A stretch of DNA of 43,865 nucleotides from Escherichia phage vB_EcolP_P433.1, in the sequence record MN384978.1; one strand, given 5' to 3'. Below, in pieces: positions 2,203-41,047 of the stretch. The notes beneath the pieces were generated by a model. That model saw nothing but the letters and a program-made list of their open reading frames with translations. It was not told the origin of the DNA and ran no database searches. Each line of letters opens with the position of its first letter. Positions within the stretch are counted from its first letter, which is position 1. Both the position numbers and the translations under genes were made by a program.

Positions 2203-2218
2203 GTCTAACATGTTAGAC
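2203..2218. repeat. perfect 16-bp palindrome GTCTAACATGTTAGAC
   Basis: Read directly; A-for-C variant of the GTCTCAC-NN-GTGAGAC palindrome family found at six other sites. Confidence 0.5.
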
Positions 2219-2359
2219 TAAGGAAAAGCAATAGATACAAGGCTAGGATAGGTTAGGCGGGCTAGGCTTCTGGTGTCCCTCCTACTGCATCTTATTACTA
2301 TTCTCTTTCTTTAGCGGTCTACCGACCGCGACCTATTCGCATCTTATAGCGTAGCTATG

Positions 2360-2650
2360 CAATCACTAAGATAAGGCACTAAGGCTTACTAAGGCACACT
2401 ACTAAGTCACTACTAAGGTAAGAACTAAGGCTTTAACTAAGGCAACCCACTAAGGTTAGCATAAGCTATCCCTCAGGTTTATACCAAGGATATACGAGCG
2501 CGGTGAGTGTAGCGTAACGTAGTGTAGCGAAACGAACAGATATCCCACCAACGTCCACCCTGTCAATACCTCATAAACGCCCTGAATGGCCTCAGGAGTG
2601 CACTAAGAGGCTTCACTAAGGCAATCACCTTGTCCATCACTAAGCCAACC
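2360..2650. repeat. array of at least 11 ACTAAG(G) heptamer repeats (CCTTAGT on the coding strand) in two clusters
   Basis: Copies read at about 2365, 2377, 2389, 2402, 2413, 2424, 2438, 2452, 2601, 2616 and 2640 in a non-coding region; resembles the CCTAAAG heptamer arrays next to T7 terminal repeats. Confidence 0.6.
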
Positions 2651-2844
2651 CTAGGCCTTCCTAGGCCGCCTACCGCGTTCCACCTTGCTAGTACATAGGA
2701 AAGCCTGGGCCTGTACCAGTTCACTAGTACACTCCCAAGGCCACCCTATGGGGGACATCCCGGCGAGGGCGAGGGCGAGACACCTCACACACGCCTATAT
2801 CAAAATTTTGACTTTGGTTAATCCTTGTACAACACTAAGGTTTC

Positions 2845-2940
2845 CTACACTTCAGTCTTAAGTGCACAAGCTATTGCTACAGGAAGAATACAGAAACCTA
2901 CACATACACCTAAGAGGAAACTAATCAATTCTACTAACAT
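2845..2940 (-). CDS. possible small hydrophobic peptide (31 aa, MLVELISFLLGVCVGFCILPVAIACALKTEV)
   Basis: ATG at 2940 preceded by AGGAGG at 5-nt spacing; single predicted transmembrane helix; starts 14 nt after the upstream small ORF. Confidence 0.3.
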   Translation of the reverse strand: MLVELISFLLGVCVGFCILPVAIACALKTEV

Positions 2941-2954
2941 GTTACCTCCTTTGA

Positions 2955-3110
2955 TTACACTAAGTCGAATCCCTTGGGTTGCTTCAGGTAAGCCTGTACA
3001 GTTCCACCAAGAACCTTCTGGCTAGCCAGTGCAGACTCTTCAGTGTCATGTATCTTCCTGAGTACCTTACGTTTGAATGGGCCGACTCCATAAGTATGAA
3101 TCCAAATCAT
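2955..3110 (-). CDS. possible small protein (51 aa, MIWIHTYGVGPFKRKVLRK...)
   Basis: ATG at 3110 preceded by AGGAGG at 4-nt spacing; just downstream of the last tailspike gene. Confidence 0.3.
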   Translation of the reverse strand: MIWIHTYGVGPFKRKVLRKIHDTEESALASQKVLGGTVQAYLKQPKGFDLV

Positions 3111-3134
3111 CAAACCTCCTTAGTACTACATCAA

Positions 3135-3152
3135 GGCAGACCGAAGCCTGCC
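3135..3152 (-). terminator. stem-loop GGCAGGC-UUCG-GUCUGCC 10 nt after the tailspike stop
   Basis: 7-bp stem with UUCG tetraloop on the minus-strand transcript; no strong U-tract, so terminator function is uncertain. Confidence 0.3.
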
Positions 3153-3161
3153 ATTTGTGTA

Positions 3162-4619
3162 TTAGTAAACCAACTTAACCCTGTACGCCACAGCCCTGTT
3201 ACCAGAAGTGCCGACACGAGAAATACGAAGTGTACCCTCAGGGTTTATCTTTGTGCTCACTGGCTCAGCCGCAGTACCATCGATTGATGCAATGGCAACA
3301 ATAGTTGCAGCAGCGAGTGCCTTGGTTCTCAAGCCTACATCGACAAACGTAAGACCATCAGGGATGATAGCAACACCTTCCTGTAAGTCAGGGTGGGTAG
3401 GGCTGTCAACACTTGTTAGCTTACACTGTGGCGTAGTCAGGGTTACGCCTACTACATGAGAGCAGCCACGCAAATGCAGTGAGCTATTCCCCATGTTGCT
3501 AATTAGCATCACGTTATTTGTACGAGTACCCAAGAAGTCACAGTCAGTCGCAGTGATACCCTCCACAGAATCGATAAGGAGATCACCCTGCTGGGCTGAG
3601 TCAATATCATTGAACTGGAATGTTACATTGGTCAGACGCATGTTCTTAGGTGCATTAGCCCCACGCTTAGTGACATACAAACCAAAGTAGCGGCTGTCAG
3701 AGATACAAGTACCATTGATACGCAGGTTGTCACAAGCGCCAACCACTTCGATGCACGCTTCACTGCCAGAGTGGTTTGAAGAGTAGTAACCGAAGTCAAT
3801 CTTCACATCTTTGGCATCCTCCAGATACAGCGCCTGTCCACCTGCAAGGTCACTCATGCAGGAGTTGAACCACGTCCAGCGAGTCCCTATGATCTCAATA
3901 GCCTTACGATTCTTGGCGCTGTTGCCACATGAGTAGACTAGCTCATTTGTGAACATCAAACCCTCTGTGACACTAGAAACACCTGCAGACACGTCTTCAC
4001 TTGCATGGATAGCAGTATAACAATCAGAGTACGTGTTGTTGAAGAAGTGAGAGTTGATCTGTCCACCACCAGAGAATACCGCATAGTTGCTTGCTGCAAA
4101 GCGGTTATTCTGGATAGTAAGCTCAGCTGATGATTTACCTTTCTCACAGAAGACGCACGCATCGTAGAATGCAAACGAGTTGTCGCGCACAGTGATTAGC
4201 GGGCCTTCGATACGGATTGCCATAGTGTTGTTGCTATCCTTTCCGCCACCTACGAAGTTCAGACCTTCGATAACAGTGAATGCCGCACGAGGTATCAGAG
4301 TGGAGCCATTGTGTGTCTTCAATGTTGCACCGTACTTACCATCACTATATAGCCGGATGGCAGATGTAATTATAAGGTCAGTTACAATGTATGGCGTGTC
4401 TTTAGGCGGAACATAGACACCAGCACCCATACCTCCTGCGCGATATGCTGCTTTGATAGCTGCACGGAACGCAGGTGTGTCATCGGTAACACCATCACCC
4501 TTTGCACCAAAATCGGTGACACTAATCTGCTCACTAAGCTTCTCAGGGAGCAGTCTCAGAATAGCTGCATCGTATAGCGCCTTGTATTTCACGAAGGCAG
4601 CACCTAGCTTTTGAATCAT
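3162..4619 (-). CDS. tailspike, probable depolymerase with pectate-lyase-like right-handed beta-helix (485 aa)
   Basis: N-terminal motif ISVTDFGAKGDGVTDDTPAFRAAIKAA typical of beta-helix glycanases; AGGAGGG RBS before the ATG at 4619; position at the genome right end as in SP6/K1-5-type phages. Confidence 0.75.
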   Translation of the reverse strand: MIQKLGAAFVKYKALYDAAILRLLPEKLSEQISVTDFGAKGDGVTDDTPAFRAAIKAAYRAGGMGAGVYVPPKDTPYIVTDLIITSAIRLYSDGKYGATLKTHNGSTLIPRAAFTVIEGLNFVGGGKDSNNTMAIRIEGPLITVRDNSFAFYDACVFCEKGKSSAELTIQNNRFAASNYAVFSGGGQINSHFFNNTYSDCYTAIHASEDVSAGVSSVTEGLMFTNELVYSCGNSAKNRKAIEIIGTRWTWFNSCMSDLAGGQALYLEDAKDVKIDFGYYSSNHSGSEACIEVVGACDNLRINGTCISDSRYFGLYVTKRGANAPKNMRLTNVTFQFNDIDSAQQGDLLIDSVEGITATDCDFLGTRTNNVMLISNMGNSSLHLRGCSHVVGVTLTTPQCKLTSVDSPTHPDLQEGVAIIPDGLTFVDVGLRTKALAAATIVAIASIDGTAAEPVSTKINPEGTLRISRVGTSGNRAVAYRVKLVY

Positions 4620-4703
4620 GTACCCTCCTTTTCTGAAAGGCTACCACCATGATAACCTTTAAGAAAAGTTGCGTATAAGCGCGGCGTAAGCCGCGACTGT
4701 CTA

Positions 4704-6758
4704 TTATAACCATTCAGGCACAATAACCTCTCCCATTGAGAAGTTTGCTGCCTCACCTTCTCTACTGCACAAACGATACTTCTTATCTACTACTTCCCGT
4801 GTGTCTGTAGAAACTATGTTGTAGCAGATGTTATTAGCTGCTCTATGAACATAAGAATTTACTACTGGCTTACTTCCATCACCTTTTGCACGCGTACCAT
4901 CAATGAAGCAAGATTCTACAAGTAACAGGCCAGCAACTAAGTTGTTGCCTGTATCCCAGTCCAATATAGTCTCATTAAACTCTACACGACCTTGTGCATA
5001 AGTGGTTCCACCAGAGTAGCCTGCAAATCGACGAACGATACCACCTTTATTCTTGATGTAACTACGAGTATTGAAAGTGACAAGGTTCTTGTATTCAATA
5101 TCCATATTACATTCAAAACCTATAATACAACTTGCATATTCGTTACGATAACCTATATAAGCATCAACCTTACAACCTTTAGAGTAAGCAGGTGTAAGTT
5201 TTACAATAGGAACTTCACGAGTTGTTGCATCATGATATGATAGCGCGTATTCATAGCGGGCATTCTTTCCATGGAATACACTCCCTGTGAAGTCTATCAG
5301 TGTAGGCATCACAAAGTCACGCAATATAGGTGACACACTAGTCTTGAAGTTATTCTTGTAAGATACAATATTCAAGGTAACAGCATCAGGCCAGTGGATC
5401 TCTGATTCCACTATAATCTTACGAGGAAGATGCAATGCGCGAGGTTGAACCGGATTACCAGATGATAACACATTATCAGAACGGCACAGAATAAGGTCAA
5501 CAATACCTGTCTTTCCTTCTGGTACTCGTATGCTACCACCTTTGACAATAATGTCACCTTTGTGCTCACCATAATCAGTACGAACACCAAAGGACATAAT
5601 GTTGGAGTTAATGATACGAGTCTGCTCATCGAAGGCACCAGTGCCAACTAAGACACCTTCTTTTACAGTAGAATTATCTACTAGAACTCCAGAGGAGCCG
5701 TAGTGTAAGTGAAAGCTAGGGACAACAGAGTCACGAAGTACCACATCACGGCAGTAGTTACCATCAGCGAAACGCCATCCAGAACCACATGTGCAACCTA
5801 AGAAGGAATGCTTCAATGTATATTCCATAAGGATGGAATAACGAGAGTTATTATCAGGCTGAGGCCCGCCACTCATATTAACATGCCAGTTGACACCATA
5901 TGTATCTCCGCTTGATAATATGCTACGATCAACAGGTACTGAAATGTTACTATCAACCACGCCGTACACATTTACCTTAGAGCGAGTAATGTTGAATGCC
6001 CACTTTGTAACTGCGCCTTTGAACTTAGGAAGCACAACAGTGATGTACGATGCAGGCAACTTATACAAGGTGCAAGTAACACCGCTATTATATGTGTTCT
6101 TGAATGTATAAGCCAGATTACCTGACTTAGTCATCAAGTTAACCTCACATTTCATTCTGGCATCATATCTACCATTAAGGTAGCGATAAAGATCAACCTC
6201 TTGGCTGGTGATCTTAACCAAACTATTATCCCAGCCATCAAGACTTTCTGACACATTAAGTTGATTACTTAACTCTGTCAAAGGGTAGTTAATTACAGTG
6301 AAAGACTTAGACACATCAGTTCGCTCATCTGCCAATGTAACATTGCCACCTGTTAGGTTAAATGTCAAATTACTCAAGTCCATGTCACCATATAGTGTCA
6401 CGTCCTTGTTGATATTAATCTCGGTAGGTACAGAAGCGTAAACCTTGATACCATAACCTCTCAGTTGAGAAAATACCGTATTTAGGCCATCTGCATCTTT
6501 GGTAGGTAAGAGGGTAAGAAGATCAACACCTTTGGATGTGTCAATAATTGAAGTCCACTTACCTTCACCAATACCTTCTGTGAAGGGACTTGAACCGGGA
6601 TTCACAGTATGAGGGTAATCACCAGACCATACATAAATGTCTCTATTAAACAGGAACATATCAGCCATGCCTTGTGCCACACCACCACCCTCAAAGGTGT
6701 TTAATGTTGGTACATTAAGACTGAGTACATTACGTCCTGCACGTGTTAATCCAGCCAT
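4704..6758 (-). CDS. tailspike / receptor-binding protein (about 684 aa)
   Basis: Large Ser/Thr/Asn/Gly-rich ORF; the track start at 6818 is TTG, so the start is placed at the ATG at 6758 with TAGGAG RBS; directly downstream of the phage promoter at 6838-6860. Confidence 0.7.
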   Translation of the reverse strand: MAGLTRAGRNVLSLNVPTLNTFEGGGVAQGMADMFLFNRDIYVWSGDYPHTVNPGSSPFTEGIGEGKWTSIIDTSKGVDLLTLLPTKDADGLNTVFSQLRGYGIKVYASVPTEININKDVTLYGDMDLSNLTFNLTGGNVTLADERTDVSKSFTVINYPLTELSNQLNVSESLDGWDNSLVKITSQEVDLYRYLNGRYDARMKCEVNLMTKSGNLAYTFKNTYNSGVTCTLYKLPASYITVVLPKFKGAVTKWAFNITRSKVNVYGVVDSNISVPVDRSILSSGDTYGVNWHVNMSGGPQPDNNSRYSILMEYTLKHSFLGCTCGSGWRFADGNYCRDVVLRDSVVPSFHLHYGSSGVLVDNSTVKEGVLVGTGAFDEQTRIINSNIMSFGVRTDYGEHKGDIIVKGGSIRVPEGKTGIVDLILCRSDNVLSSGNPVQPRALHLPRKIIVESEIHWPDAVTLNIVSYKNNFKTSVSPILRDFVMPTLIDFTGSVFHGKNARYEYALSYHDATTREVPIVKLTPAYSKGCKVDAYIGYRNEYASCIIGFECNMDIEYKNLVTFNTRSYIKNKGGIVRRFAGYSGGTTYAQGRVEFNETILDWDTGNNLVAGLLLVESCFIDGTRAKGDGSKPVVNSYVHRAANNICYNIVSTDTREVVDKKYRLCSREGEAANFSMGEVIVPEWL

Positions 6759-6837
6759 ATAATCTCCTATTACTTCCCAACCCTCACCATGAAGATTGGC
6801 TAGTAATAGGCCGCTCAAAAGAACGGCACTATCTTAT

Positions 6838-6860
6838 CCCTCCTATAGTGTCCAGTAAAT
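6838..6860 (-). promoter_or_regulatory. phage RNAP promoter ATTTACTGGACACTATAGGAGGG
   Basis: Read as reverse complement on the plus strand; 23-nt match to the SP6-type core GACACTATAG; upstream of the first tailspike gene. Confidence 0.75.
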
Positions 6861-6889
6861 TATAAGACACTGATACATAAAGCTATGTA

Positions 6890-7087
6890 TTAATTGTATC
6901 CGCGTTCTAGCGAAAGAATGTACAAACCTAATTTTGTAGCGTCAGGCTTACTGAAGCAGACCTTATCGTCCACCTCGTAAACTGCCGTCAGCGTCGGCTT
7001 CAGTGGCCTTACCTTTGGAGTCTCTGGTAACTCCGTCTGACACCCTGAAGTGATCAGCGAACCAATCAGCAGGGTTGTCGCTAGCAT
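6890..7087 (-). CDS. small lipoprotein, candidate o-spanin (65 aa from the internal ATG)
   Basis: MLATTLLIGSLITSGC is a signal peptide plus lipobox-like Cys, followed by a Pro-rich stretch (LPETPKVRPLKPT); GAGG RBS before the ATG at 7087; lies in a different frame overlapping ORF 6963-7184. Confidence 0.4.
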   Translation of the reverse strand: MLATTLLIGSLITSGCQTELPETPKVRPLKPTLTAVYEVDDKVCFSKPDATKLGLYILSLERGYN

Positions 7088-7176
7088 GATTCGCCTCACT
7101 CTGTGCCTCCTTCTCTTCCTTCTTCTTCTTAGCGGCAAGCAGCAGACCAATAAGGCCTGCCAATAACTCAAGCACC

Positions 7177-7326: not shown

Positions 7327-7434
7327 TGCATCTCCCTTTCCATTGAGCTAGCAAATCCGAGTAGTTCTGCCAATCCTCATAGTTACCTGCCTCGGCAGCT
7401 TGAGCAACCATGCGCTCGCACCATTCAATACATC

Positions 7435-7797: not shown

Positions 7798-7830
7798 TGC
7801 CCGTCTAATTACTAACGAGAGATTATATTA

Positions 7831-8118: not shown

Positions 8119-8134
8119 ATCTATTCTCCTCTTA

Positions 8135-16467: not shown

Positions 16468-16501
16468 GGTACCTCCTAGTTAATGTCATTCATAAAGGCA
16501 T

Positions 16502-16517
16502 GTCTCACATGTGAGAC
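16502..16517. repeat. palindrome GTCTCAC-AT-GTGAGAC (18-bp perfect with flanks)
   Basis: Read directly; lies between the stop of the 981-aa gene and the RBS of the 1267-aa gene, flanked by the conserved GTTATACTCAAGG and CCTTTATGAAT boxes. Confidence 0.6.
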
Positions 16518-16534
16518 AAACCTTGAGTATAACA

Positions 16535-19480
16535 CTAGCTCAGTTTAATCCTACCAATCTGAGCATTAGGCACTAATGCGCCTTTCTTTGGAGGATACAC
16601 TTGCATCCATCCATCTTTACCAATCTGGTTGTAGATAGACTTATTAACGAATGCCTCTGACATTTGACCAGAGAACTTGACATACATAGAGCCATCCTCT
16701 CGTGTTTCCACTTCACTAATCTTAGGGACTGCACCACCGCTCTGTGCTAGGTTGTAGGCCTCTGCTCTGCGTACTAAAAGGGCCGGACTACGTTTACCTT
16801 CTGTGGATGCAGTAGATAGCATTTCGATGAACCCATCTGTAAACTTTCCAGCCTTGAATGCGGCGTAAGCCTTAGGTGCATTTTGGATACCACCTTTGCC
16901 TAAGTTATAAGATAAATCCATCAACCCACGTTGCACACCTGGATGCATGTCTTCAAAAGACACAGCCCAGCCTGCGGTACTAGGCACGTGGCTTTTCAAG
17001 TCTTGTTGCAGTAAGCGCATAGCGCGTTCAGGGGTTAACTGCGACTGTCCCGGATTGAATGGAACTTTGTCTGTACCAATCATAATGTACCCGTTCTTCT
17101 TCTCTTCGTCCGTAAGGAAATGACCATACCCTACAGATTGACCGTGTGCATCTTTGTAAGGTGTATAAACACCAGCTACTCTGTCAAAACCCACATTGGC
17201 ACTGTTCTCAGCTTTGGCTACATAATTATAGAAGTCCATATTATTCCTCTTATACCCAAACTCAAAGTTTGCTGGTAGGTTCTCACCTGATGCAAAGGCT
17301 GGTGACATTAAGAAGTCAGCAATCCCACGTGATCCTACAGTTTTGGCTGTAGTCTTTGCAGGCGGTTGTGCTTGGTATCCACCTGCACCCCACATCCTCA
17401 TTTGCTGTGCTTCAAAATTCTTACGCCCCTCATCCCGTGATTTAACTTCTGCATCATACCGTTGCTTAAGTAAGGATTGCCCTTTGATTTCAGACAAGGG
17501 CATTGCCTGTGTAACAGGTACACGACCAGAGCCTGCACGTATGGTAAAGAGTCCACGCTGCGCATCTACATCAAAATACAAATCCCCTTCTTCTAAGCCG
17601 CCTGATGCATCAAGAAGTGCTTGCTTGTTGTTATCCATATATTGACGTAGTGCCAGAGGCAGGTCGTTCTGGTTTACTCCTATAGTGTCACCTAATGTGC
17701 GAACATCACCTTTCACCAGAACACCTTGGGTAAAGAAACCCTCAGATAGCTGTGTATACTGGCTAGTCAAGTAGGATTTAAGATGACGTTTAATCGTGTC
17801 ATTATTATGGCCTGCAACCTTCATTGCTCTCGCAATTGTACTGGCTTCCTCCAGCATAATGTCACGACCCATCTCGCTCATGTTATCTCCACGAGTAAGC
17901 CAACTACCCCCTGCCACATCACTGACAACCCCATCTACATCCTCATTCAGTTCTTTAAGTACAGAACCTTGTAGTCTCTCTCCGCGAGAGGCATTCTGTG
18001 CAAACTCGATAGCTTGACCTGCATTATACCCCATGCGAGTTGCTAAGTCGTAGTTCTCTACAAAGGCATACTCCTTATCTCCCATGACAGCACGACGTGC
18101 ATCTTCTGGGATAGAGTCACGCGCTCGCATAATAGTCTGTAATGCTTCAGGCTCAACCTTCATATCTTTAAGGTTGGCAGAGGATAACTGCATAAGCGAC
18201 GAATATCTTTCCTTAATGATTGGGTCTTCAATAAGTTGTTGCCCCAGTTTAAGATAACGCATCTGCTCGTACCTACCACGAATAGCTTCAGCTTGTTCTC
18301 CGGTTGCACCAGTGCGGGCAATTTCATCTTCTGCCAACTTAGTATAAGTGGTAACTAATGCCTCTGCGTAAGCCTTCCTGTCATCTTTGCTAATGTCCTG
18401 CAAACCTAGAGGGGAGTCAGATTCTCCTCGTTTAATGAGGTCTTCCAGTTTTGCTGCCTCTGCATTAACCTTAGCTTGCCTATCGAAGATAGCTTTGATT
18501 TCACTATCAGACCAAGCAGTACCCCCGGTCAACTCATTGTGATTCTGCATTACCTGAAGTAACTCTTCACGAGTAAGTTGCCCTGCATCGAATGCCTTTA
18601 TAGCAGCATCCTTCTTCTCGAAGAGGGCGACCTGATTCTGTGCAGCCCAAGTCCTATTAGCTTGAATTTCTCCAGTTTGCAAAGCACCAACACGGTCGTA
18701 CAAAGAGACACCCTTATCATCCACCAGTGCTTTGGTGCCCTGAATAAGACTATCATCTCCTACTGCCGCCCTATCAGATGCAATCTTAGCAACCATTTGA
18801 TCAAACTCAGGTTTACTAAGACCCATTGCCAGTGCTTCTTTTTGTAGCTGAATGAGTGCTGCACCAGTGGCATCAGGTGCTACATCCTTTGTAGCCATGA
18901 TAATACGAGCCTGCATAGATTGCATACGCGCTTCTTCTTCTTGACGAAGTTTAGCCTCTGCTCTCGTAGCGGTGATTCGAGGTTGCTGCTCCATGAACGC
19001 GTTAGTGACAATCCTCATAGAATCCTTGTCACCACGAAGCTCTGGATAGCTTTGCCACAATCTATTTTGTACCTCATTACGAGATTGAACTACATAGTTT
19101 TCCCAATCTTCGTCACTGCCTTGAAATCGCTGTGCTTCTGCCTGTAGAGCAGCTGTCTGTGCGATTACATCATTTTGCAAACTAACCAGCATATGAGCAC
19201 GAGCACCACCTACTGTTGCATCCTCAGATGGCACCATACCAGATAATGCCCTGTCCATCTGGCGTACCTTATCTTCCTCAACCTTCTGATTAAGGATTCC
19301 AGTAGTAACATCAGCTACACTACTAGCTGCTTGAATAAGGTCTTCGATAAATCTACTACCGGAGTTAGAAGCCACGCCAGCATCAACACCACCCACTTGC
19401 TGGGGTGCAAAAGTCATGACATTAGGGGAAGTAGCCCGCACTTGTGGCAGTCCTTGTACTGCTTGTCTCTCAATTGCCAT
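16535..19480 (-). CDS. internal virion protein with C-terminal lysozyme-like (T4-lysozyme/GH24-type) domain (981 aa)
   Basis: Around aa 750-910 (about 16750-17235) the segment AENSANVGFDRVAGVYTPYKDAHGQSVGYGHFL matches the T4 lysozyme catalytic region (E...YKDTEGYYTIGIGHLL); position corresponds to T7 gp15. Confidence 0.7.
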   Translation of the reverse strand: MAIERQAVQGLPQVRATSPNVMTFAPQQVGGVDAGVASNSGSRFIEDLIQAASSVADVTTGILNQKVEEDKVRQMDRALSGMVPSEDATVGGARAHMLVSLQNDVIAQTAALQAEAQRFQGSDEDWENYVVQSRNEVQNRLWQSYPELRGDKDSMRIVTNAFMEQQPRITATRAEAKLRQEEEARMQSMQARIIMATKDVAPDATGAALIQLQKEALAMGLSKPEFDQMVAKIASDRAAVGDDSLIQGTKALVDDKGVSLYDRVGALQTGEIQANRTWAAQNQVALFEKKDAAIKAFDAGQLTREELLQVMQNHNELTGGTAWSDSEIKAIFDRQAKVNAEAAKLEDLIKRGESDSPLGLQDISKDDRKAYAEALVTTYTKLAEDEIARTGATGEQAEAIRGRYEQMRYLKLGQQLIEDPIIKERYSSLMQLSSANLKDMKVEPEALQTIMRARDSIPEDARRAVMGDKEYAFVENYDLATRMGYNAGQAIEFAQNASRGERLQGSVLKELNEDVDGVVSDVAGGSWLTRGDNMSEMGRDIMLEEASTIARAMKVAGHNNDTIKRHLKSYLTSQYTQLSEGFFTQGVLVKGDVRTLGDTIGVNQNDLPLALRQYMDNNKQALLDASGGLEEGDLYFDVDAQRGLFTIRAGSGRVPVTQAMPLSEIKGQSLLKQRYDAEVKSRDEGRKNFEAQQMRMWGAGGYQAQPPAKTTAKTVGSRGIADFLMSPAFASGENLPANFEFGYKRNNMDFYNYVAKAENSANVGFDRVAGVYTPYKDAHGQSVGYGHFLTDEEKKNGYIMIGTDKVPFNPGQSQLTPERAMRLLQQDLKSHVPSTAGWAVSFEDMHPGVQRGLMDLSYNLGKGGIQNAPKAYAAFKAGKFTDGFIEMLSTASTEGKRSPALLVRRAEAYNLAQSGGAVPKISEVETREDGSMYVKFSGQMSEAFVNKSIYNQIGKDGWMQVYPPKKGALVPNAQIGRIKLS
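17675..17697 (-). promoter_or_regulatory. SP6-type promoter CATTAGGTGACACTATAGGAGTA inside the internal-virion-protein gene
   Basis: Identical to the SP6 consensus from -15 to +1 (TTAGGTGACACTATAG), unlike the other promoters here which carry CTG or CCG at -12 to -10. Confidence 0.5.
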
Positions 19481-29115: not shown

Positions 29116-29437
29116 TACATTCGTGACGATGCTTCTGGAACAACTCTTTATAGTAGTCTGCTTTCTTCAGGTCTTCTTCAGTATTGAACTTATTACCTGC
29201 ACGCAGACGATACTTCAAAGCGTTACCCATGCAATAGCCTGCGAATTGCTTCTCTGTCATGCTACGGGCAATGATAGTGATTGCTTCTACACCATCGAAG
29301 AACTCATAGTGCTTCGGCTTCGTAACCATATTGTTGTCCAACACGTTGGACTTAACCTTGGCTTTGCAAGTGTGAGGGTATCTATCGTCCTTCTCTAAGC
29401 AGGCAATGCAGGTATTATCATAATGATGTTGTAACAT
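29099..29437 (-). CDS. hypothetical protein (112 aa), possibly DUF3310-type
   Basis: Start placed at ATG 29437 with GGAGGA RBS (track start 29455 is GTG); Cys/His-rich N-terminus; the KPKHYEF...GNALKYRLRAG motif recalls DUF3310 phage proteins, a tentative match. Confidence 0.4.
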   Translation of the reverse strand: MLQHHYDNTCIACLEKDDRYPHTCKAKVKSNVLDNNMVTKPKHYEFFDGVEAITIIARSMTEKQFAGYCMGNALKYRLRAGNKFNTEEDLKKADYYKELFQKHRHECIDEDI

Positions 29438-32713: not shown

Positions 32714-32729
32714 GTCTCACACGTGAGAC
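32714..32729. repeat. inverted repeat GTCTCAC-AC-GTGAGAC
   Basis: Read directly; begins 1 nt after the stop of the 72-aa gene and ends 16 bp before the promoter. Confidence 0.6.
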
Positions 32730-34436: not shown

Positions 34437-34504
34437 CATGTTAGACAAAATAAGTGGGAATAAGTTATTCATAAAGGCCACCCGTAAGTGACCTTGAGTA
34501 TAAC

Positions 34505-37051
34505 TCAGTGTGTTTCTTTCCAGCTTGCACCTATCTTATACTCGCCTGCCATCGGGCAACGCATCTTCAGATACTGCCCTGCCCAAGTCATGGCGTCGGC
34601 AATGATATGCCCTGCACGGTGATAACGCCGCTGGCAATGAAGTACACCAGCAGTAGCATCAACACTAACGAGATTTGCAGCAGACCACATACGTCCCTCA
34701 GAATCCACATGAACACGTTTCTCCTCTGCATCGAACACTGCTTTCACAGCGGCCTTCTCTGTTTCAAAACCCTCTAAGGTGAAAGGCAGGTCGTAGTTAA
34801 GATACAAGACCTCTTCTTCAGGAACCTCCATCTGGATTTCATCATGCACGTTAGCTACACCACAAGGGTTTCCCATACTATCTAAGGCCACACCTTCCTT
34901 GCGCATAACTGCAAATGCCTTGACTAATGCGTATTTCATACACAAAGAACCTGTCATCTGGAGTAATACGTTAAGCATAGTGTGCTCTTTAAGTTCACCA
35001 CCAGACATACGGATGCGACCCCAATGCCCATCAGGTGCTTGTAGGTAGCCAAACTTGTTACCTTGTGCAATAACATTCTCGCGAAGACGTGCAAGGGATG
35101 GTAGTTCAATCTCAAATCTTGCCACAACTTCCTTCATTTCTTCCTCAGTAACACCACACACTGCTGCAAGGTTTGCTATACCAGAACCATAGAGGAAAGC
35201 ATATATAAATGTTTTCGCCATATCACGCTTAGGAAGCCCAGCCTTCATCTGGTTATGCGTATGTATATCACCATGCAGTACAATATCTTGGTATTCAGGG
35301 TCATTCATGAAGTGAGACAGCACACGTAGTTCAAGACCTGCACCATCACAACCTAGGATTAGCTTACCTTTACCTGCTATGAATAAATCACGTAAAGGAT
35401 ACAAGCCACGGGCAGGAATATTAACCACGTTACGATGACGCATACGGAACGTAGAAGTGCCAATACTAATAGCAACAGCTGGAACACGCCACTCTCCATC
35501 ATCCTTATCTGACGTAGGCCAGTGTCCATACCTTTCGTAGTATTGCTGCGCATTGACTCCTAGCTCCTTGTTAAATGCTACAGGTACAAGGCCACGACAC
35601 TTTCGTACACCAGCCTGCGAGGGCCACGTTCCTTTCTCGTTGAAGGCTTCAACGTCACCACGGTTGAGTATCTGACCACGACGGGATACGAGTATGTACC
35701 ATGCAGCGATACCCAAGCACCAATCAGGGACTGTTTTACCTTCACGTGCGGCTCTTTCTTGCCATAAAGTAAGGGACTTCTCATTTATCTTACCACTCCA
35801 AGGCTTAGGTAGGACACCATTTTCATCAAGGTATGCTTGCTCTGTGTCGTTGAACTCCACACCTTTCCATCCATAGTCATAGAGCACTTGCTTAACGGTG
35901 TCACGGTTTCCCAAGGGAATCTCTTCAAACGTAACGGGACTGTAAGCGCCAACCCACTTGATGCTTGGCGTGTCATTACGGTTTCCTCTAAGGTGAGGGA
36001 AATCTTTCTTGACAGAAGCACTCCAATCTCCAGACTTAGTTGTGACAGACCATACAGTCTTCCTATCTCCACGGCGCTCCGCATGTAGAAAGTGTGAGGG
36101 GTCGAGTACAGTTGGGATATTATTGTTTCTTCCATACTCATTTGCTTTTTGGCAGGTTTCATTCTTTTCTTCCGGTTTAAAAGGTTTAGACTTGATACGC
36201 ATAGGCATGTGCGGACGGAACGCTGCGACTGTCTCATCAATCTTAGCGTCCAGTTCTTCGCATCGCGCTAATGCCTTGTCGATATCCAGACGGAAGCCAC
36301 GCTCGGCCTGACGGCTCATCTCCAGCGCTACAATGGACTCCATGTGGAAGGCTGTCTCAATGCCTAGGCCAGTACGTTTATTCACGCCACGGCGTTTGTG
36401 CTCCGTCCATTCCCCATTAAATAGCCAGAGGAATAGGTCACGACCAATCGCCACGTCCTCACGTACGCGATGCACCATGTGGTCGGTCAGTTTAGACCAA
36501 TCTTCGTTCTCCGGCTTATAGCGGCCTATACGGATGCCGTGCGCCTCAATTGAGTGAGGGGCAACGTTACCCATACCTTTGGCATAAGCCTGAGGAGGGA
36601 GGCGTCTATCGGGGTTTAACAGGCGGCTCATGACCAGCGTATCCATGACGCGTACCGGACACAGGTCAGCACGGAGTCTGCCCTTGCCGCGCTTCTCGGT
36701 ATAGTTAAAGCCTTTCCAGATATCAGGGAATGCTTTCTCAAAGAGAAGCCCGTCATACCCTAGGAAGTTCTGTGACACGATAGCTTCACAGTGCTTCAGG
36801 AAGTTAACGCCGTCAACTAAGTCACCATCTTGATGCCCTTCCCACTCCTTCAGGCGTTCTCTTGCTTCAGGGTCACGCATCTCATATGGGTCAAAGAAGA
36901 GGAATTCCTCAGTGGTGAGCAAGTCCATGCAGCAAATGATGTGCACATCTTCGCGGTGTCCATATCGGATAGCATCAAGAAGACCCTTAGCCTCCGCATC
37001 CATTACTAGGATGCGGCCTTCTGCTTCCTTCTTCCAATCAATAATCTTCAT
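34505..37051 (-). CDS. DNA polymerase, family A with 3'-5' exonuclease domain (848 aa)
   Basis: Exo motif VMDAEAKGL; polymerase motif A GCDGAGLELRVL, motif B KTFIYAFLYGSG, motif C VHDEIQMEV, all close to the T7 gp5 equivalents. Confidence 0.9.
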   Translation of the reverse strand: MKIIDWKKEAEGRILVMDAEAKGLLDAIRYGHREDVHIICCMDLLTTEEFLFFDPYEMRDPEARERLKEWEGHQDGDLVDGVNFLKHCEAIVSQNFLGYDGLLFEKAFPDIWKGFNYTEKRGKGRLRADLCPVRVMDTLVMSRLLNPDRRLPPQAYAKGMGNVAPHSIEAHGIRIGRYKPENEDWSKLTDHMVHRVREDVAIGRDLFLWLFNGEWTEHKRRGVNKRTGLGIETAFHMESIVALEMSRQAERGFRLDIDKALARCEELDAKIDETVAAFRPHMPMRIKSKPFKPEEKNETCQKANEYGRNNNIPTVLDPSHFLHAERRGDRKTVWSVTTKSGDWSASVKKDFPHLRGNRNDTPSIKWVGAYSPVTFEEIPLGNRDTVKQVLYDYGWKGVEFNDTEQAYLDENGVLPKPWSGKINEKSLTLWQERAAREGKTVPDWCLGIAAWYILVSRRGQILNRGDVEAFNEKGTWPSQAGVRKCRGLVPVAFNKELGVNAQQYYERYGHWPTSDKDDGEWRVPAVAISIGTSTFRMRHRNVVNIPARGLYPLRDLFIAGKGKLILGCDGAGLELRVLSHFMNDPEYQDIVLHGDIHTHNQMKAGLPKRDMAKTFIYAFLYGSGIANLAAVCGVTEEEMKEVVARFEIELPSLARLRENVIAQGNKFGYLQAPDGHWGRIRMSGGELKEHTMLNVLLQMTGSLCMKYALVKAFAVMRKEGVALDSMGNPCGVANVHDEIQMEVPEEEVLYLNYDLPFTLEGFETEKAAVKAVFDAEEKRVHVDSEGRMWSAANLVSVDATAGVLHCQRRYHRAGHIIADAMTWAGQYLKMRCPMAGEYKIGASWKETH

Positions 37052-37190: not shown

Positions 37191-37221
37191 TTGATACCTC
37201 CAATCAATATGATGAAAGGCT

Positions 37222-37237
37222 GTCTCACGTGTGAGAC
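37222..37237. repeat. inverted repeat GTCTCAC-GT-GTGAGAC (18-bp perfect palindrome 37221-37238)
   Basis: Read directly; starts about 10 nt after the stop of the 68-aa gene, preceded by GTCAAGG and followed by GCCTTTCAT. Confidence 0.6.
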
Positions 37238-37247
37238 AACCCTTGAC

Positions 37248-37454
37248 TTATCGACTGCGTGTTACAGTTAATTTCTGGCCCATGTATTTACCTTGGTGTG
37301 GCTCCCAAGTTGCCTCCTTGATAACCTGTTCACGCGTCAGGCTATTCTTCTTTGCTTCAGCCATAGTTAACTGTGCAAACAGGAAGGCTTGGTTGGTAAT
37401 TTGCGCTTGCAGGTCTTCGTGACCATCAAACATCTTAAGGCTGTGTTTAGACAT
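37248..37454 (-). CDS. hypothetical protein (68 aa)
   Basis: ATG start at 37454 overlapping the end of the upstream ORF; no motif support. Confidence 0.4.
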   Translation of the reverse strand: MSKHSLKMFDGHEDLQAQITNQAFLFAQLTMAEAKKNSLTREQVIKEATWEPHQGKYMGQKLTVTRSR

Positions 37455-38377: not shown

Positions 38378-38416
38378 AATCAATCTCCAGTTATTTAATG
38401 TACTTAATAAGAGCCT

Positions 38417-38432
38417 GTCTCACGTGTGAGAC
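38417..38432. repeat. inverted repeat GTCTCAC-GT-GTGAGAC with extended arms
   Basis: Read directly; about 20 nt after the primase-helicase stop; the transcript could form a stem of about 11 bp. Confidence 0.6.
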
Positions 38433-38453
38433 AAGCCCTGATAAATACACTAA

Positions 38454-40442
38454 TCAGAACTCACTTTCTTCATCGAAGCCGGTCTCTTCTATAGTGTCCG
38501 GTAAATCCGGTACTTCTTGTTGCCTTGCTTCCCCTGTATCAAATGACTTAGTACGGGCTTGTGGTTCCATTAAACGTCCGGTTTGAATGTCACCCTTAAG
38601 CATGACCTTGGTTCCAGTGTAGATACCTTGGTCGCGGTCTTTGACACATGAGATGTACGTGGTAGTCCTTTCATCAAGCGTTTCAGCTCTTGTATTACGC
38701 TCAATCCCCAAGGCGTAAGATGCCCAGAATCCGATAGCACCTGAGCCTCGGAAGTCAGAAAGGATAACTTCGCCACCTTCTTCGTGCTGGACTCGGTTTC
38801 CCGCAGGGCGAGTAAGGTGCGAGACAAGGAATATAGTAACTGGGTGTCTGTCTTTGATAGTACCAATCCGCTTGACGCATTCATCAAGTGCACCAACCTT
38901 CCCACCAAAAGCACGCTCATCTAATTTAATCCCCGTTAAGTTATCAATGATGATATTAGAAATACCCATAGCCTCAAACTCAAGGCAAGTCTGCTCTACC
39001 TTCTCCATTGAGTAGTCACCTTCTAGGTCAGCTACGAAGAGCTTCCCTGTATCAGCGACATAGTCAATGGCAGCATTAGCTTCTTCCTCAGTATAGTCGA
39101 ACACCTCGCGGTATCCATCTTCTTTCGGGTCGTTGGTTGGCGGTAGTTCAATACGCTTATCAATCCACTTGCCGATAAAAGCACGAGACACTTTGACCAT
39201 CGGGTCTTCTGTAGAAATAATGCCTACGGATTCACCGTGTTCTTCGATGAGGTGCTTAACCACTTCACGGAGGAACTCAGTCTTACCTACACCAGAGCCT
39301 GCGCCTACAATGATAAGCTGGTTCTTACGGATACCTAGCGTTACTTTGTTCAGCTTAGGCCAAGGCCATGACAGCCCTTGCTCTGGTCGTGCGGCCTTAA
39401 GTTTATCCCTTTGAGATGCAATAGATTTAATCTGGCTACCAAAGACTTCATCAGACGACTTGGCATTAAACCACGCATCTACAAATTCTTTAGCCTTGCC
39501 AGCCATCAATGCCTTATTGGCATCTTTGCACCCAGAAGGGTACTCAAGAATATAGGATTTGCCGGGAAAGAGGCGAGCCGCTTGTTGGTTCTGCTTCTGC
39601 CCTACTTCATCCCCATCGAAGCCCCAAATAATCTTCTTGAATTGGGCGATGTGTTCACGGTTCTGCACAATCTCTTCAAGGCAAGATTCACCCTTATTAA
39701 CAGACCATACGTGGTAGGGCTGGCCTTCCCACTTAGTGCCTTTGGCAGAATCAAGGAGCATCTGTTGTGCTGCTAGTGCATCAAGCTCTCCGCCTACAAT
39801 AAGCAAGCAATCCTTCCGTCTTCCCTTGTCTAACACGTGAGACAAAGTATTCATACCGAAAAGATCTTGCATACCAAAGAGCTTACCTAGGTGACCAAAC
39901 TTAAAGTCTTTAGGTAAGGTACGGCACTTAGCGCCTACTAGCTCACCTCTCTCGAAGCGTGGATAGTAATGCCGTGAGACTCTACCCTCTTCATCGTGTC
40001 CGACACGTACATCATACAATGCGCAAATGTCGCCGCGAATGTGTCGGGAAACAAGATTCTTACGCTTAAGCGTGAGGAACCATTCAACATCAAGTTTCCA
40101 CTCTGCTTCTTGGTCTGCCCTTTCTTGCTCATTCATGACCTCCCAACGGTCTTTCATACGCATACCACCAAGTGCGATGGCTCGCAGCTTAGGGTCGCTT
40201 ATCTTCCCTTCCCTCTCCATCTCTTTGAATTGAGAAGGTGTGTATTTTATGTTGCCAGTAATAGGCAACTCGGTGATCTCGATACCGCCGTCTGGCTTGT
40301 GGTAGTATGGCTTGCCATTATCATGGAAGTGACCACGGTTACAATAGCCAGCACCATCATCAAATATCATGAGATGGTTGCCGGATTTATCGTGTCCATT
40401 CTTCTGGCAAGCAGGGCACGGGATGTTATTAATAATAGCCAT
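38454..40442 (-). CDS. DNA primase-helicase, T7 gp4-like (662 aa)
   Basis: N-terminal zinc ribbon CPACQ...YCNRGHF; helicase Walker A GAGSGVGKTEF; acidic C-terminal tail ending in Phe (...TGFDEESEF) as in T7 gp4. Confidence 0.9.
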   Translation of the reverse strand: MAIINNIPCPACQKNGHDKSGNHLMIFDDGAGYCNRGHFHDNGKPYYHKPDGGIEITELPITGNIKYTPSQFKEMEREGKISDPKLRAIALGGMRMKDRWEVMNEQERADQEAEWKLDVEWFLTLKRKNLVSRHIRGDICALYDVRVGHDEEGRVSRHYYPRFERGELVGAKCRTLPKDFKFGHLGKLFGMQDLFGMNTLSHVLDKGRRKDCLLIVGGELDALAAQQMLLDSAKGTKWEGQPYHVWSVNKGESCLEEIVQNREHIAQFKKIIWGFDGDEVGQKQNQQAARLFPGKSYILEYPSGCKDANKALMAGKAKEFVDAWFNAKSSDEVFGSQIKSIASQRDKLKAARPEQGLSWPWPKLNKVTLGIRKNQLIIVGAGSGVGKTEFLREVVKHLIEEHGESVGIISTEDPMVKVSRAFIGKWIDKRIELPPTNDPKEDGYREVFDYTEEEANAAIDYVADTGKLFVADLEGDYSMEKVEQTCLEFEAMGISNIIIDNLTGIKLDERAFGGKVGALDECVKRIGTIKDRHPVTIFLVSHLTRPAGNRVQHEEGGEVILSDFRGSGAIGFWASYALGIERNTRAETLDERTTTYISCVKDRDQGIYTGTKVMLKGDIQTGRLMEPQARTKSFDTGEARQQEVPDLPDTIEETGFDEESEF
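38484..38506 (-). promoter_or_regulatory. phage RNAP promoter ATTTACCGGACACTATAGAAGAG inside the 3' end of the primase-helicase gene
   Basis: CCG sub-class at -12 to -10; lies within the last codons of the helicase ORF. Confidence 0.6.
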
Positions 40443-40660
40443 TAGTTCACCTTAATAGTTCTGGGTTGGTACGAGTCAGCTTTTCTACGCTTAGAGATAA
40501 ACTGCTTTGCATCACTTTCGGTGCAGAAGATAGCCTCTGTATCAGTATATCCAATAGGCATCATACATGTGACCCATATTAAGCCTAATACTTTACGTTG
40601 CACTATGTAACACTCTTGCCCGTGACTATTTAAACAGGTCTTGATTCTGTATTTAGCCAT
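40442..40660 (-). CDS. hypothetical protein (72 aa)
   Basis: ATG at 40660; its stop overlaps the primase-helicase start (TAATG). Confidence 0.45.
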   Translation of the reverse strand: MAKYRIKTCLNSHGQECYIVQRKVLGLIWVTCMMPIGYTDTEAIFCTESDAKQFISKRRKADSYQPRTIKVN

Positions 40661-40663
40661 AAC

Positions 40664-40792
40664 TTAGAACTCCCACGCTGCGCGTTTAGATGCACGGTCA
40701 CGGACAGGTTTATTCAGCTTCTTGCCTTTCTTCTGCCCTTCTTCCATGTCAAAACGGTTAGCTTTACGGGTCATCTTCTCAAAGTTACGCAT
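40664..40792 (-). CDS. gp1.1-like small basic protein (42 aa, MRNFEKMTRKANRF...)
   Basis: Not in the ORF track; GGAGA RBS before the ATG at 40792; the N-terminus MRNFEKMT and the length match T7 gene 1.1 product as remembered. Confidence 0.55.
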   Translation of the reverse strand: MRNFEKMTRKANRFDMEEGQKKGKKLNKPVRDRASKRAAWEF

Positions 40793-40817
40793 GGTTAAAT
40801 CTCCAAAGTGAGTTAGT

Positions 40818-40840
40818 CTTATCTATACTGTCCGGTAAAT
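40818..40840 (-). promoter_or_regulatory. phage RNAP promoter variant ATTTACCGGACAGTATAGATAAG
   Basis: G instead of C at -5 and a divergent initiation region; preceded 5 bp upstream by the palindrome at 40846-40861. Confidence 0.55.
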
Positions 40841-40845
40841 ACGAA

Positions 40846-40861
40846 GTCTCACATGTGAGAC
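40846..40861. repeat. inverted repeat GTCTCAC-AT-GTGAGAC
   Basis: Read directly; abuts the upstream edge of the promoter at 40818-40840. Confidence 0.6.
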
Positions 40862-41004
40862 AACCTAGGTCTGCCCTTCCTCTAAGTAGTAATAATAGGA
40901 AGGAAGAAGGTAATAGGTATTCCTAGGTAAACCTATATAACCTTTAATACCTATTATTTCCTTTTATATCCTTATCTTCCCTCCTCTTTCCCATCTCCGA
41001 TGGT

Positions 41005-41027
41005 TTCTCCTATAGTGTCCGGTAAAT
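41005..41027 (-). promoter_or_regulatory. phage RNAP promoter ATTTACCGGACACTATAGGAGAA
   Basis: First phage promoter downstream of the polymerase gene; CCG sub-class. Confidence 0.7.
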
Positions 41028-41031
41028 ATGA

Positions 41032-41047
41032 GTCTCACATGTGAGAC
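41032..41047. repeat. inverted repeat GTCTCAC-AT-GTGAGAC
   Basis: Read directly; about 75 nt after the polymerase stop and 4 bp upstream of the promoter at 41005-41027. Confidence 0.6.

What the first reader, a model, noticed from the sequence alone, without database searches (positions are those of the whole stretch)
2203..41047. Seven copies of a 16-18 bp palindrome GTCTCAC-NN-GTGAGAC, each just after a stop codon and several abutting phage promoters
Near-identical inverted repeats occur at 16502-16517, 32714-32729, 37222-37237, 38417-38432, 40846-40861 and 41032-41047, with an A-variant (GTCTAAC-AT-GTTAGAC) at 2203-2218 and a one-mismatch copy inside the helicase gene near 39826-39845. All six canonical copies are intergenic, starting 1-75 nt after a stop codon on the coding strand. 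Three (32714, 40846, 41032) end 4-16 bp upstream of the -17 edge of a phage promoter. Seven 16-bp matches in 44 kb is far beyond chance. As RNA they form 7-11 bp hairpins, so they could be RNase III-type processing sites or pause/termination signals; the strict 2-bp-spaced dyad symmetry also fits an operator for a dimeric DNA-binding protein acting next to promoters. Neither role is established here.
Basis: seen in the sequence. Interest (0 to 1): 0.65.

Follow-up and report, generated by a model that had tools for sequence, protein, structure and literature searches.

The report
Conserved hairpin module capping RNase III sites
The repeated palindrome is a real 16-base hairpin module shared by all SP6/K1-5-like phages: three copies cap T7-type RNase III RNA-processing sites, while the rest stand alone, mostly just before phage promoters, and what reads them is unknown.

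Summary
The window holds six exact copies of GTCTCAC-NN-GTGAGAC (0 expected by chance) and two near copies.

The window is a K1-5-like phage, reverse-complemented, with its genes on the minus strand.

Three copies (16502, 37222, 38417) form the apex of 70-nt two-stem hairpins. These show strong covariation and sense-strand-only G·U pairs. A covariance model built only from them retrieves six hits in phage T7, and all six lie on RNase III sites. They are therefore T7-type RNase III processing signals.

The other copies are bare 6-7-bp hairpins:
- Three lie 4-15 nt upstream of phage promoters.
- Two lie inside genes. The gene 9 copy is under nucleotide-level selection.
- One lies near the left end.

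RNase III-type hairpins also occur without the palindrome, so the palindrome is a separate module. It is present in every relative with ≥67% primase identity. Its sequence differs between lineages (GTCTCAC, GTCCAAC, GTCTAAC/GTTGGAC, a +1-nt centre, and GTCTACA in a distant relative) and switches at nearly all sites of a genome together.

That concerted pattern implies either a sequence-specific reader or gene conversion. Neither was identified. The palindromes are not terminators.

The parts
38389..38458 (-). T7-type RNase III processing hairpin between gp9 (primase/helicase) and gp10. The palindrome at 38417-38432 forms its apex.
   Evidence: The sense strand folds at -31.5 kcal/mol against -17.2 for the antisense strand. 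The covariance-model score is 79 bits on the minus strand against 40.8 on the plus strand. Covariation is shown.
37194..37263 (-). T7-type RNase III processing hairpin between gp11 and gp12. The palindrome at 37222-37237 forms its apex.
   Evidence: 75.7 bits.
16474..16543 (-). T7-type RNase III processing hairpin between gp35 and gp36. The palindrome at 16502-16517 forms its apex. The flanks read UACUCAAGG...CCUUUAUGA, as in T7 R0.5, R1.1 and R18.5.
   Evidence: 75.4 bits.
34453..34514 (-). A fourth T7-type RNase III hairpin that lacks the palindrome. Its upper stem is GGUCACUUACGGGUGGCC.
   Evidence: 19.4 bits, full-length match; fold; conserved in K1-5, K1E and SP6.
41032..41047 (-). Bare palindrome 'post7a', lying between the early terminator TE and the first phage promoter (41010-41027).
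   Evidence: The covariance model gives only a local match.
40846..40861 (-). Bare palindrome 'post7b', at the end of a 166-nt non-coding leader and 5 nt upstream of the second phage promoter (40823-40840). It is syntenic with T7 R1.1.
   Evidence: Gene 8 is a T7 gp1.1 homologue.
32714..32729 (-). Bare palindrome 'post17', 1 nt after the gp17 stop codon and 15 nt upstream of the promoter at 32681-32698. That promoter is itself embedded in a second hairpin (32685-32708).
39828..39843 (-). Intragenic copy in gp9. On the sense strand it reads GTCTCACGTGTTAGAC and encodes S-H-V-L-D.
   Evidence: Third-codon positions are frozen in 27 distinct relatives. No extended structure is conserved.
29336..29351 (-). 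Intragenic copy of the sister allele, GTCCAACGTGTTGGAC, in gp23 (DUF3310). It encodes S-N-V-L-D.
   Evidence: Orthologous copies occur in SP6 and phD2B.
2203..2218 (-). Left-end copy, GTCTAACATGTTAGAC, the intermediate allele. It lies upstream of the early promoter region and 21 nt before a CRP-type site.
34437..34446 (-). Half copy, GTCTAACATG, abutting the promoter at 34419-34436.
41089..41112 (-). Canonical intrinsic terminator (TE) after the RNA polymerase gene. It is listed to show that the palindrome is not the terminator.

Best explanation
The palindromes are copies of a 16-nt hairpin module, GUCYMAC-RY-GUKRGAC, that is specific to SP6/K1-5-like phages (Molineuxvirinae) and most likely works as a folded single strand in the transcript.

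Capped copies (shown by computation). The three copies at 16502, 37222 and 38417 form the apex of ~70-nt hairpins. Each hairpin has a lower stem, an asymmetric internal loop and an upper stem. In fold and flanking sequence these hairpins are homologous to the RNase III processing signals of phage T7.

Capped copies (inferred). Host RNase III cuts once on the 3' side of the internal loop, about 10 nt 3' of the palindrome, at the ...CCUUUAU^GA-type position. The cut separates the gp35|gp36, gp11|gp12 and gp9|gp10 messages. It leaves the upstream mRNA ending in a stable hairpin.

Bare copies. The other copies are 6-7-bp hairpins that RNase III alone should not cut. Three sit between the end of a transcription unit and the next phage promoter, two sit inside genes, and one sits at the left end. 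My inference is that they act as 3'-end or insulator hairpins in read-through RNA, or as the binding site of a factor that recognises this particular hairpin.

Concerted change. The module changes sequence at nearly all sites of a genome together. This means something reads its sequence, or the copies homogenise by gene conversion.
For: RNA fold of the three capped copies:
- The sense strand folds at -31.5, -28.1 and -27.7 kcal/mol, against -17.2, -21.6 and -21.8 for the antisense strand.
- In 27 orthologous or paralogous sites from 9 genomes, 24 pairs are predicted and 14 show compensatory changes.
- 96.5% of cells are paired. The covariation score is 0.537 against 0.196 in shuffles (0 of 500 reach it), and slid controls give at most 0.12.
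- 82 G·U cells can pair only on the sense strand, against 6 A·C cells.

Kinship with T7 RNase III signals:
- A covariance model built only from these sites finds six hits in T7 with filters off, all on the + strand. They lie at R18.5, R0.5, R0.3, R4.7, R1.1 and R6.5, and nothing else scores below E=1 (T7 folds).
- U·G and U-A pairs lie directly below the palindrome (20/27 and 26/27 sequences). These match the UA/UG distal box that PMC1540722 describes as a positive determinant for RNase III.

The palindrome is a separable module:
- RNase III-type hairpins without it occur in the window, SP6, Era103 and Premi.
- Bare palindromes occur without the RNase III scaffold.

Function of the bare copies:
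- The copy in gp9 keeps 4 of 6 third-codon positions invariant in 27 distinct sequences. The other two are the allele positions. Flanking third positions average 1.09 bits of entropy.
- Positions 4/13 and 5/12 always stay complementary although their identity changes (C-G, U-A or U·G; A-U or C-G). Two alleles coexist in single genomes. This pattern fits a hairpin better than independently read duplex half-sites.
- From post7b onward, 12 G·U hybrids occur against 0 C·A hybrids.
Against: - No experimental transcript ends or cleavage data exist for this phage group in the literature I could search.
- The bare copies have no conserved extension, so they do not meet the two-helical-turn rule for RNase III.
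- The post7a and left-end copies lie where sense transcription should be low. There, C·A hybrids are as common as G·U hybrids (9 against 6).
- The centre is R-Y in all 161 two-nucleotide centres surveyed. That symmetric constraint is easier to explain for duplex DNA than for an RNA loop.
- The G·U orientation bias could instead come from C-to-T deamination of the non-template strand.
- In the distant relative L158 the palindrome is abundant but no RNase III-type scaffold is found. The link to RNase III is therefore not the ancestral or general feature.
Confidence: 0.6

Rival explanations
1. The 16-bp dyad is a duplex-DNA operator for a dimeric, phage-encoded protein that co-evolves with its sites. 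It would bind next to early and middle promoters, to shut them off or to mark replication promoters. It appears at the apex of RNase III hairpins only because that is the one place a palindrome can be inserted without breaking the RNA fold.
For: - The sequence switches together at nearly all sites of a genome, in at least five lineage-specific versions. These include GTCTACA-NN-TGTAGAC, present 10 times in the distant relative L158.
- The most deeply conserved copies are those next to promoters: the two after the RNA polymerase gene, the one before gp18/gp16, and the left end near sigma-70 -35 boxes.
- The centre is R-Y in all 161 two-nucleotide centres surveyed.
- The core allele follows the genome background rather than the flanking DNA.
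- gp6 is conserved in all these phages and has a DUF3102-like N-terminal domain plus a coiled coil. This is a weak lead.
Against: - No HTH or RHH domain was found in 20 small proteins.
- No protein groups the two A-allele lineages together.
- Spacing to the promoter varies from 2 to 15 nt among orthologues.
- The A and B alleles coexist in one genome, as do 2-nt and 3-nt centres. A rigid dimer would not be expected to tolerate this.
- Isolated half-sites are not enriched: 3 observed against about 5 expected.
- The arms co-vary rather than varying independently.
Confidence: 0.22
2. The palindromes are intrinsic (class I) terminators or pause sites, as annotated for the orthologous sites in Proteus phage Premi.
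For: - The Premi GenBank record marks the orthologues of the post9, post11 and post35 copies as terminators.
- A loose scan flags 41032 and 40846, because the promoter's ATTTA follows the stem.
Against: - No U-run directly follows any stem.
- Class I termination needs a hairpin followed by a U-rich tract (PMC11347151).
- A separate strong terminator lies 41 nt upstream of the first copy.
- The copies at 38417, 37222, 32714 and 16502 are not flagged at all.
- The long hairpins match RNase III signals instead.
Confidence: 0.06
3. The copies are kept alike by gene conversion or by template switching at quasi-palindromes, with only a generic requirement for a stable hairpin and no specific reader. 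This would resemble bacterial REP elements without their transposase.
For: - The K1-5 post11 site carries a B-type core inside flanks identical to the window's A-type site.
- The window's post35 site has SP6-like flanks but an A-type core.
- The centre toggles between AC and GT at orthologous sites, as expected from inversion of the centre.
Against: - 16 bp is very little homology for conversion.
- Five stem pairs are invariant across lineages whose primases are 67-98% identical.
- The intragenic copy is under purifying selection at synonymous sites.
- Upper stems of the core-less hairpins (this window, SP6, Era103, Premi) and of the T7 sites are not uniform, which suggests RNase III does not require this sequence.
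Confidence: 0.12

Closest known systems
Phage T7 RNase III processing signals (R0.3, R0.5, R1.1, R4.7, R6.5, R18.5)
   Same: - The two-stem hairpin with an asymmetric internal loop is the same.
- The shared motifs are AGUG...A.UCAAGG at the 5' side and CCUUUAU.A...CAUU at the 3' side.
- U·G and U-A pairs occur in the upper stem.
- The position is the same, between a stop codon and the next ribosome-binding site.
- Some sites lie next to phage promoters.
- The model built from the window's family retrieves six T7 sites and nothing else.
   Different: - Three of the four sites here carry an extra 7-bp cap that is invariant within a genome. It sits above the region RNase III needs. Sequences above the distal box are dispensable in T7 R1.1 (PMC1540722).
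- T7 upper stems vary from site to site and T7 has no repeated palindrome.
- The same cap also occurs alone at six other places in the window.
Bacterial REP (repetitive extragenic palindromic) elements
   Same: - Both are short palindromes placed after stop codons.
- Both have a sequence that is uniform within a genome and differs between lineages.
- Both are potential 3' stabilisers of mRNA. This comparison rests on my own knowledge.
   Different: - The element here is a 16-nt phage element.
- No RAYT-type transposase is present.
- Several copies lie inside genes or directly before promoters.
Repressor-operator and polymerase-promoter pairs that co-evolve in phages
   Same: All sites in a genome change sequence together, as the phage promoters do in these same genomes.
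   Different: - No cognate protein was identified.
- Two alleles and two centre spacings coexist in one genome.
Rho-independent terminators (annotation of the orthologues in Proteus phage Premi)
   Same: Both are stem-loops placed after a gene end.
   Different: - No U-tract follows the stem.
- Sequence and fold match RNase III signals instead.

Membership tests
T7-type RNase III processing signal | Irregular hairpin of about two helical turns, with the upper and lower stems separated by an asymmetric internal loop | tested here: met
   Met for 16502, 37222 and 38417: a 13-bp upper stem, a 2x3 or similar internal loop, and a 9-12-bp lower stem. Not met for 41032, 40846, 32714, 39828, 29336 and 2203, where the covariance model gives only local matches.
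T7-type RNase III processing signal | Sequence and structure homology to experimentally defined T7 sites | tested here: met
   The model built only from SP6-like sites hits T7 at 36811-36874, 1422-1486, 847-908, 13848-13910, 5842-5905 and 18496-18580, all on the + strand, at E from 5.5e-5 to 0.015. No other hit scores below E=1. The identification of these positions as R18.5, R0.5, R0.3, R4.7, R1.1 and R6.5 rests on my recollection of the Dunn & Studier coordinates, checked by folding.
T7-type RNase III processing signal | Structure is maintained in the RNA of the coding strand | tested here: met
   82 G·U cells against 6 A·C cells. The covariance model scores 75-79 bits on the sense strand and 29-41 bits on the antisense strand.
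T7-type RNase III processing signal | Distal-box UA/UG pairs and an AU-rich proximal box (PMC1540722) | tested here: inconclusive
   U·G (20/27) and U-A (26/27) pairs lie just below the palindrome, and AAGG/CCUU forms the base of the upper stem. Their distance from the predicted cut differs by 1-2 bp from T7 R1.1.
T7-type RNase III processing signal | Cleavage by RNase III in vivo or in vitro | not testable with these tools
   No transcript-end data for this phage group were found in the searchable literature.
Intrinsic (class I) terminator | GC-rich hairpin immediately followed by a U-run | tested here: not met
   Only 41032 and 40846 pass a loose scan, through the promoter's ATTTA. The other four copies are not flagged. 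The genuine terminator is at 41089-41112.
Operator of a dimeric DNA-binding protein | Dyad symmetry | tested here: met
   The arms are 7+7 bp and the centre is R-Y in all 161 two-nucleotide centres surveyed.
Operator of a dimeric DNA-binding protein | A cognate DNA-binding protein encoded nearby, or co-varying with the site | tested here: not met
   Pfam finds no DNA-binding domain in 20 small proteins. No protein identity pattern follows the allele. gp6 is only a weak DUF3102-like lead.
Operator of a dimeric DNA-binding protein | Fixed geometry: constant half-site spacing and constant position relative to the promoter | tested here: not met
   Centres of 2 nt and 3 nt coexist in Premi and L148. 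Spacing to the promoter ranges from 2 to 15 nt.

The most novel reading that the evidence does not exclude
The 16-nt module is the recognition site of an unidentified sequence-specific factor, probably phage-encoded. The factor would co-evolve with all of its sites, as phage RNA polymerases do with their promoters. It would mark the ends of transcription units and the replication-type promoters, acting either on the RNA hairpin or on DNA. This would be a second, hidden layer of regulation in SP6-like phages that T7 lacks.
Probability: 0.3. Interest if true: 0.8.

Novelty: new variant of a known kind. Interest (0 to 1): 0.55.

Why it matters
- It extends the T7 model of RNase III mRNA processing to the SP6/K1-5 group on comparative evidence. 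It also corrects database annotations that call these hairpins terminators.
- It separates out a second element, the invariant cap. This cap is conserved in every relative examined with ≥67% primase identity, is selected even inside genes, and changes in concert between lineages. No known function accounts for it.
- If a specific reader exists, it would be a new regulatory component of a phage group used for phage therapy (K1 and K5 capsule phages) and for SP6 polymerase expression systems.
- The modules mark natural boundaries that could serve as insertion or insulator points in phage engineering.

Tried and rejected
- **Rfam.** No family matches at any palindrome. The only significant hit in the window is a group I intron elsewhere.
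- **Literature.** No held paper prints the palindrome sequence. No held paper links RNase III to SP6-like phages. The 2004 SP6 and K1-5 genome papers are not held, so I cannot say whether they mention the repeat. The deposited SP6, K1-5 and K1E records annotate nothing at these sites.
- **Terminators.** Rejected for lack of a U-run.
- **Extended structure around the gp9 copy.** Not conserved.
- **A reader gene linked to the allele.** No protein places Era103 with the K1-5 group.
- **DNA-binding domains.** Pfam, PHROGs and PDB sequence searches of gp6, gp16, gp18 and other small proteins gave nothing usable.
- **Homologue search for gp6.** It returned only proteins at least 90% identical, so I did not attempt a structure prediction.
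- **Primase recognition site.** Rejected from memory: SP6 primase is reported to use GCA, which the palindrome lacks.
- **Host transcription-factor operator.** Unlikely, because the same family occurs in phages of E. coli, Salmonella, Klebsiella, Proteus, Pectobacterium, Erwinia and Lelliottia.
- **Isolated half-sites.** Not enriched.


Full report
**What the window is.** The window is a complete, circularly permuted and reverse-complemented genome of a K1-5/K1E-like coliphage (Vectrevirus, Molineuxvirinae, the SP6 group). It is about 91% identical to K1-5. Its gp6 protein is identical to that of Escherichia phage vB_EcolP_P433.1, found on a 43,865-bp contig. All genes lie on the minus strand, so "sense" below means the minus strand.

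**The observation.**
- GTCTCACNNGTGAGAC occurs six times exactly, against 0 in 100 shuffles.
- Two further copies have one or two mismatches.
- A perfect copy of a sister sequence, GTCCAACGTGTTGGAC, lies at 29336-29351 inside gp23.
- A half copy abuts the promoter at 34419-34436.
- Five canonical copies start 1-72 nt after a stop codon.
- The sixth, at 40846, lies 258 nt after the polymerase stop codon, at the end of a non-coding leader.
- Eleven phage promoters were found on the sense strand. Three are preceded by a palindrome at 4, 5 and 15 nt.

**Conservation.** I examined nine annotated relatives: K1-5, K1E, SP6, K1-ULIP33, POP72, phD2B, Kp7, Premi and Era103.
- Each has 4-9 copies at the same syntenic positions. 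These are two copies after the RNA polymerase gene, one about 600 nt into the primase/helicase gene, one each after gp9, gp11, gp17 and gp35, and one near the left end.
- In 27 further IMG/VR loci, every phage whose primase is at least 67% identical carries 4-8 copies within about 20 kb.
- The sequence comes in lineage-specific versions:
  - GTCTCAC/GTGAGAC in the K1-5 group and the Era103 group.
  - GTCCAAC/GTTGGAC in most others.
  - GTCTAAC/GTTGGAC in the SP6 group.
  - A 3-nt centre in Proteus phages.
- Positions 4/13 and 5/12 change, but they remain complementary.
- A more distant relative, L158 (primase 55% identical), has its own version, GTCTACA-NN-TGTAGAC. It occurs ten times in 22 kb: after the polymerase gene, directly before phage promoters, upstream of sigma-70 -35 boxes and inside genes.
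- More distant Autographiviridae and T7 have none.

**Three copies are RNase III signals.**
- On the sense strand only, the copies at 38417, 37222 and 16502 extend into a 13-bp upper stem, an asymmetric internal loop and a 9-12-bp lower stem.
- An alignment of the 27 orthologous and paralogous sites gives 24 consensus pairs, 14 of them with compensatory changes.
- 96.5% of cells are paired. The covariation score is 0.537 against 0.196 in shuffles (0 of 500 reach it), and it is at most 0.12 when the partners are slid.
- G·U cells outnumber A·C cells 82 to 6. The fold therefore exists in the RNA of the coding strand.
- The flanks read ...AGUG..A.UCAAGG[upper stem]CCUUUAU.A..CAUU.., which is the motif of the T7 RNase III sites.
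- A covariance model built only from the SP6-group sites was run over T7 with filters off. It returned six hits, all on the coding strand. They lie at the sites I recall as R18.5, R0.5, R0.3, R4.7, R1.1 and R6.5, and nothing else scored below E=1.
- T7 precursor RNAs are cut by RNase III at such sites. R1.1 is cut at a single phosphodiester (PMC4858673).
- Internal loops restrict cleavage to one strand and leave a protective 3' hairpin (PMC1540722).
- Directly below the palindrome lie U·G and U-A pairs, which are the pair types of the RNase III distal box (PMC1540722).
- I therefore place these three copies, with about 0.85 confidence, among T7-type RNase III processing signals. Cleavage itself remains an inference.

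**The palindrome is a separate module.**
- The window has a fourth T7-type hairpin at 34453-34514 with an ordinary T7-like upper stem and no palindrome.
- SP6, Era103 and Premi have such core-less sites too.
- Conversely, the copies at 41032, 40846, 32714, 39828, 29336 and 2203 match the model only locally. The gp9 copy has no conserved extension.
- In T7 R1.1, sequence above the distal box is not needed for cleavage (PMC1540722). RNase III therefore does not explain why the cap is invariant.

**The bare copies are still functional.**
- In the gp9 copy, four of six third-codon positions are invariant in 27 distinct sequences, and the other two are the allele positions. Flanking third positions average 1.09 bits of entropy.
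- All intragenic copies use the frame G|TCY|MAC|NNG|TTR|GAC, which encodes S-(N/H)-x-L-D. A perfect GTCTCAC/GTGAGAC copy in that frame would create a TGA stop codon. This explains the one-mismatch copy in gp9.
- The copy at 41032 is not a terminator. A canonical terminator lies 41 nt upstream of it.
- The copy at 40846 is syntenic with T7 R1.1. It lies between two promoters after the polymerase gene and before a homologue of T7 gene 1.1.

**Concerted change.**
- The allele follows the genome rather than the neighbouring DNA. The window's gp35 and gp36 genes, and the hairpin flanks between them, are SP6-like, yet the core there is the K1-5 type.
- K1-5 has a GTCCAAC core inside flanks identical to the window's GTCTCAC site.
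- No protein groups the two GTCTCAC lineages (the K1-5 group and Era103) together.
- No DNA-binding domain was found among the small proteins.
- gp6 is conserved throughout, including in L158. It has a weak DUF3102-like N-terminal domain and a coiled coil. This is only a lead.

**RNA or DNA for the bare copies?**

Points favouring a folded single strand:
- The arms co-vary.
- Two alleles and two centre lengths coexist in one genome.
- From the second post-polymerase copy onward, G·U hybrids occur 12 times and C·A hybrids never.

Points favouring duplex DNA:
- All 161 two-nucleotide centres surveyed are R-Y.
- The most deeply conserved copies lie next to promoters.
- The left-end and post-terminator copies lie in poorly transcribed DNA and show C·A hybrids as often as G·U hybrids.

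The G·U bias could also arise from deamination of the non-template strand. I rate the hairpin/RNA reading at about 0.6, the operator reading at about 0.2, and the rest split between homogenisation without a reader and termination or pausing.

**Verdict.** The finding is real and far beyond chance. Part of it is ordinary once compared with T7, because three copies cap RNase III processing signals. The remainder is a conserved hairpin cap that changes in concert across a genome. It also stands alone before promoters and inside genes. Known systems do not explain it, and I found no description of it in the literature I could search.

Noticed in passing
window 9871-10078 (-): A group I intron (Rfam RF00028, 63.6 bits, E 5.7e-14) splits the large terminase gene into ORFs 9996-11213 and 8569-9351. 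A 177-aa ORF (9293-9826) lies between them, as with the homing endonuclease gp40.5 of K1E.
   Followed up: partly
window 2166-2181: A perfect CRP-type palindrome, TGTGACAGGTATCACA, lies 21 nt downstream (sense) of the left-end palindrome, in front of the early promoter region. Similar sequences are visible in K1E and SP6.
   Followed up: partly
window 32685-32708 (-): The promoter before gp18 is embedded in a hairpin. The hairpin's 5' arm complements promoter positions about -12 to -3. The arm co-varies with the promoter sequence in SP6, K1-ULIP33, POP72, phD2B and Premi.
   Followed up: partly
window 40862-41010 (-): A 166-nt non-coding transcript runs from the first phage promoter to the second palindrome. 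It is AT- and purine-rich and strongly folded (-47.8 kcal/mol). It is syntenic with the T7 primary replication origin (phi1.1A/B), and the next gene is a T7 gp1.1 homologue.
   Followed up: partly
window 12664-19480 (-): gp35 and gp36 (internal virion proteins) are 80% and 87% identical to SP6 but only 46% and 39% identical to K1-5. The rest of the genome is K1-5-like, so this is a mosaic segment.
   Followed up: no
window 1-885 (-): gp6 is an early protein conserved in all relatives, including L158. It has a weak DUF3102-like N-terminal domain, an acidic linker, a coiled coil and a very conserved C-terminal region of about 60 aa. That region resembles a J-domain without the HPD motif.
   Followed up: partly
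window 32959-33765 and 32257-32625 (-): gp16 and gp18 end in acidic tails with a terminal aromatic residue (...DEDAEY and ...SEEEEF). This resembles the C-terminus of the T7 single-stranded DNA-binding protein gp2.5.
   Followed up: no
L158 (IMGVR_UViG_3300027711_000003), 1717-20923: A distant relative carries its own repeated palindrome, GTCTACA-NN-TGTAGAC, 10 times exactly and once with a single mismatch. The centres are unconstrained (CC, GG, AT, AC, GT). Its promoters are of the ..CACTATAAGAGA type.
   Followed up: partly
window 32169-32196 (-): A strong terminator-like hairpin with a T-run (GCCCTGTCTGCC...GGCAGGGT CTTTTG) lies between gp18 and gp19.
   Followed up: no
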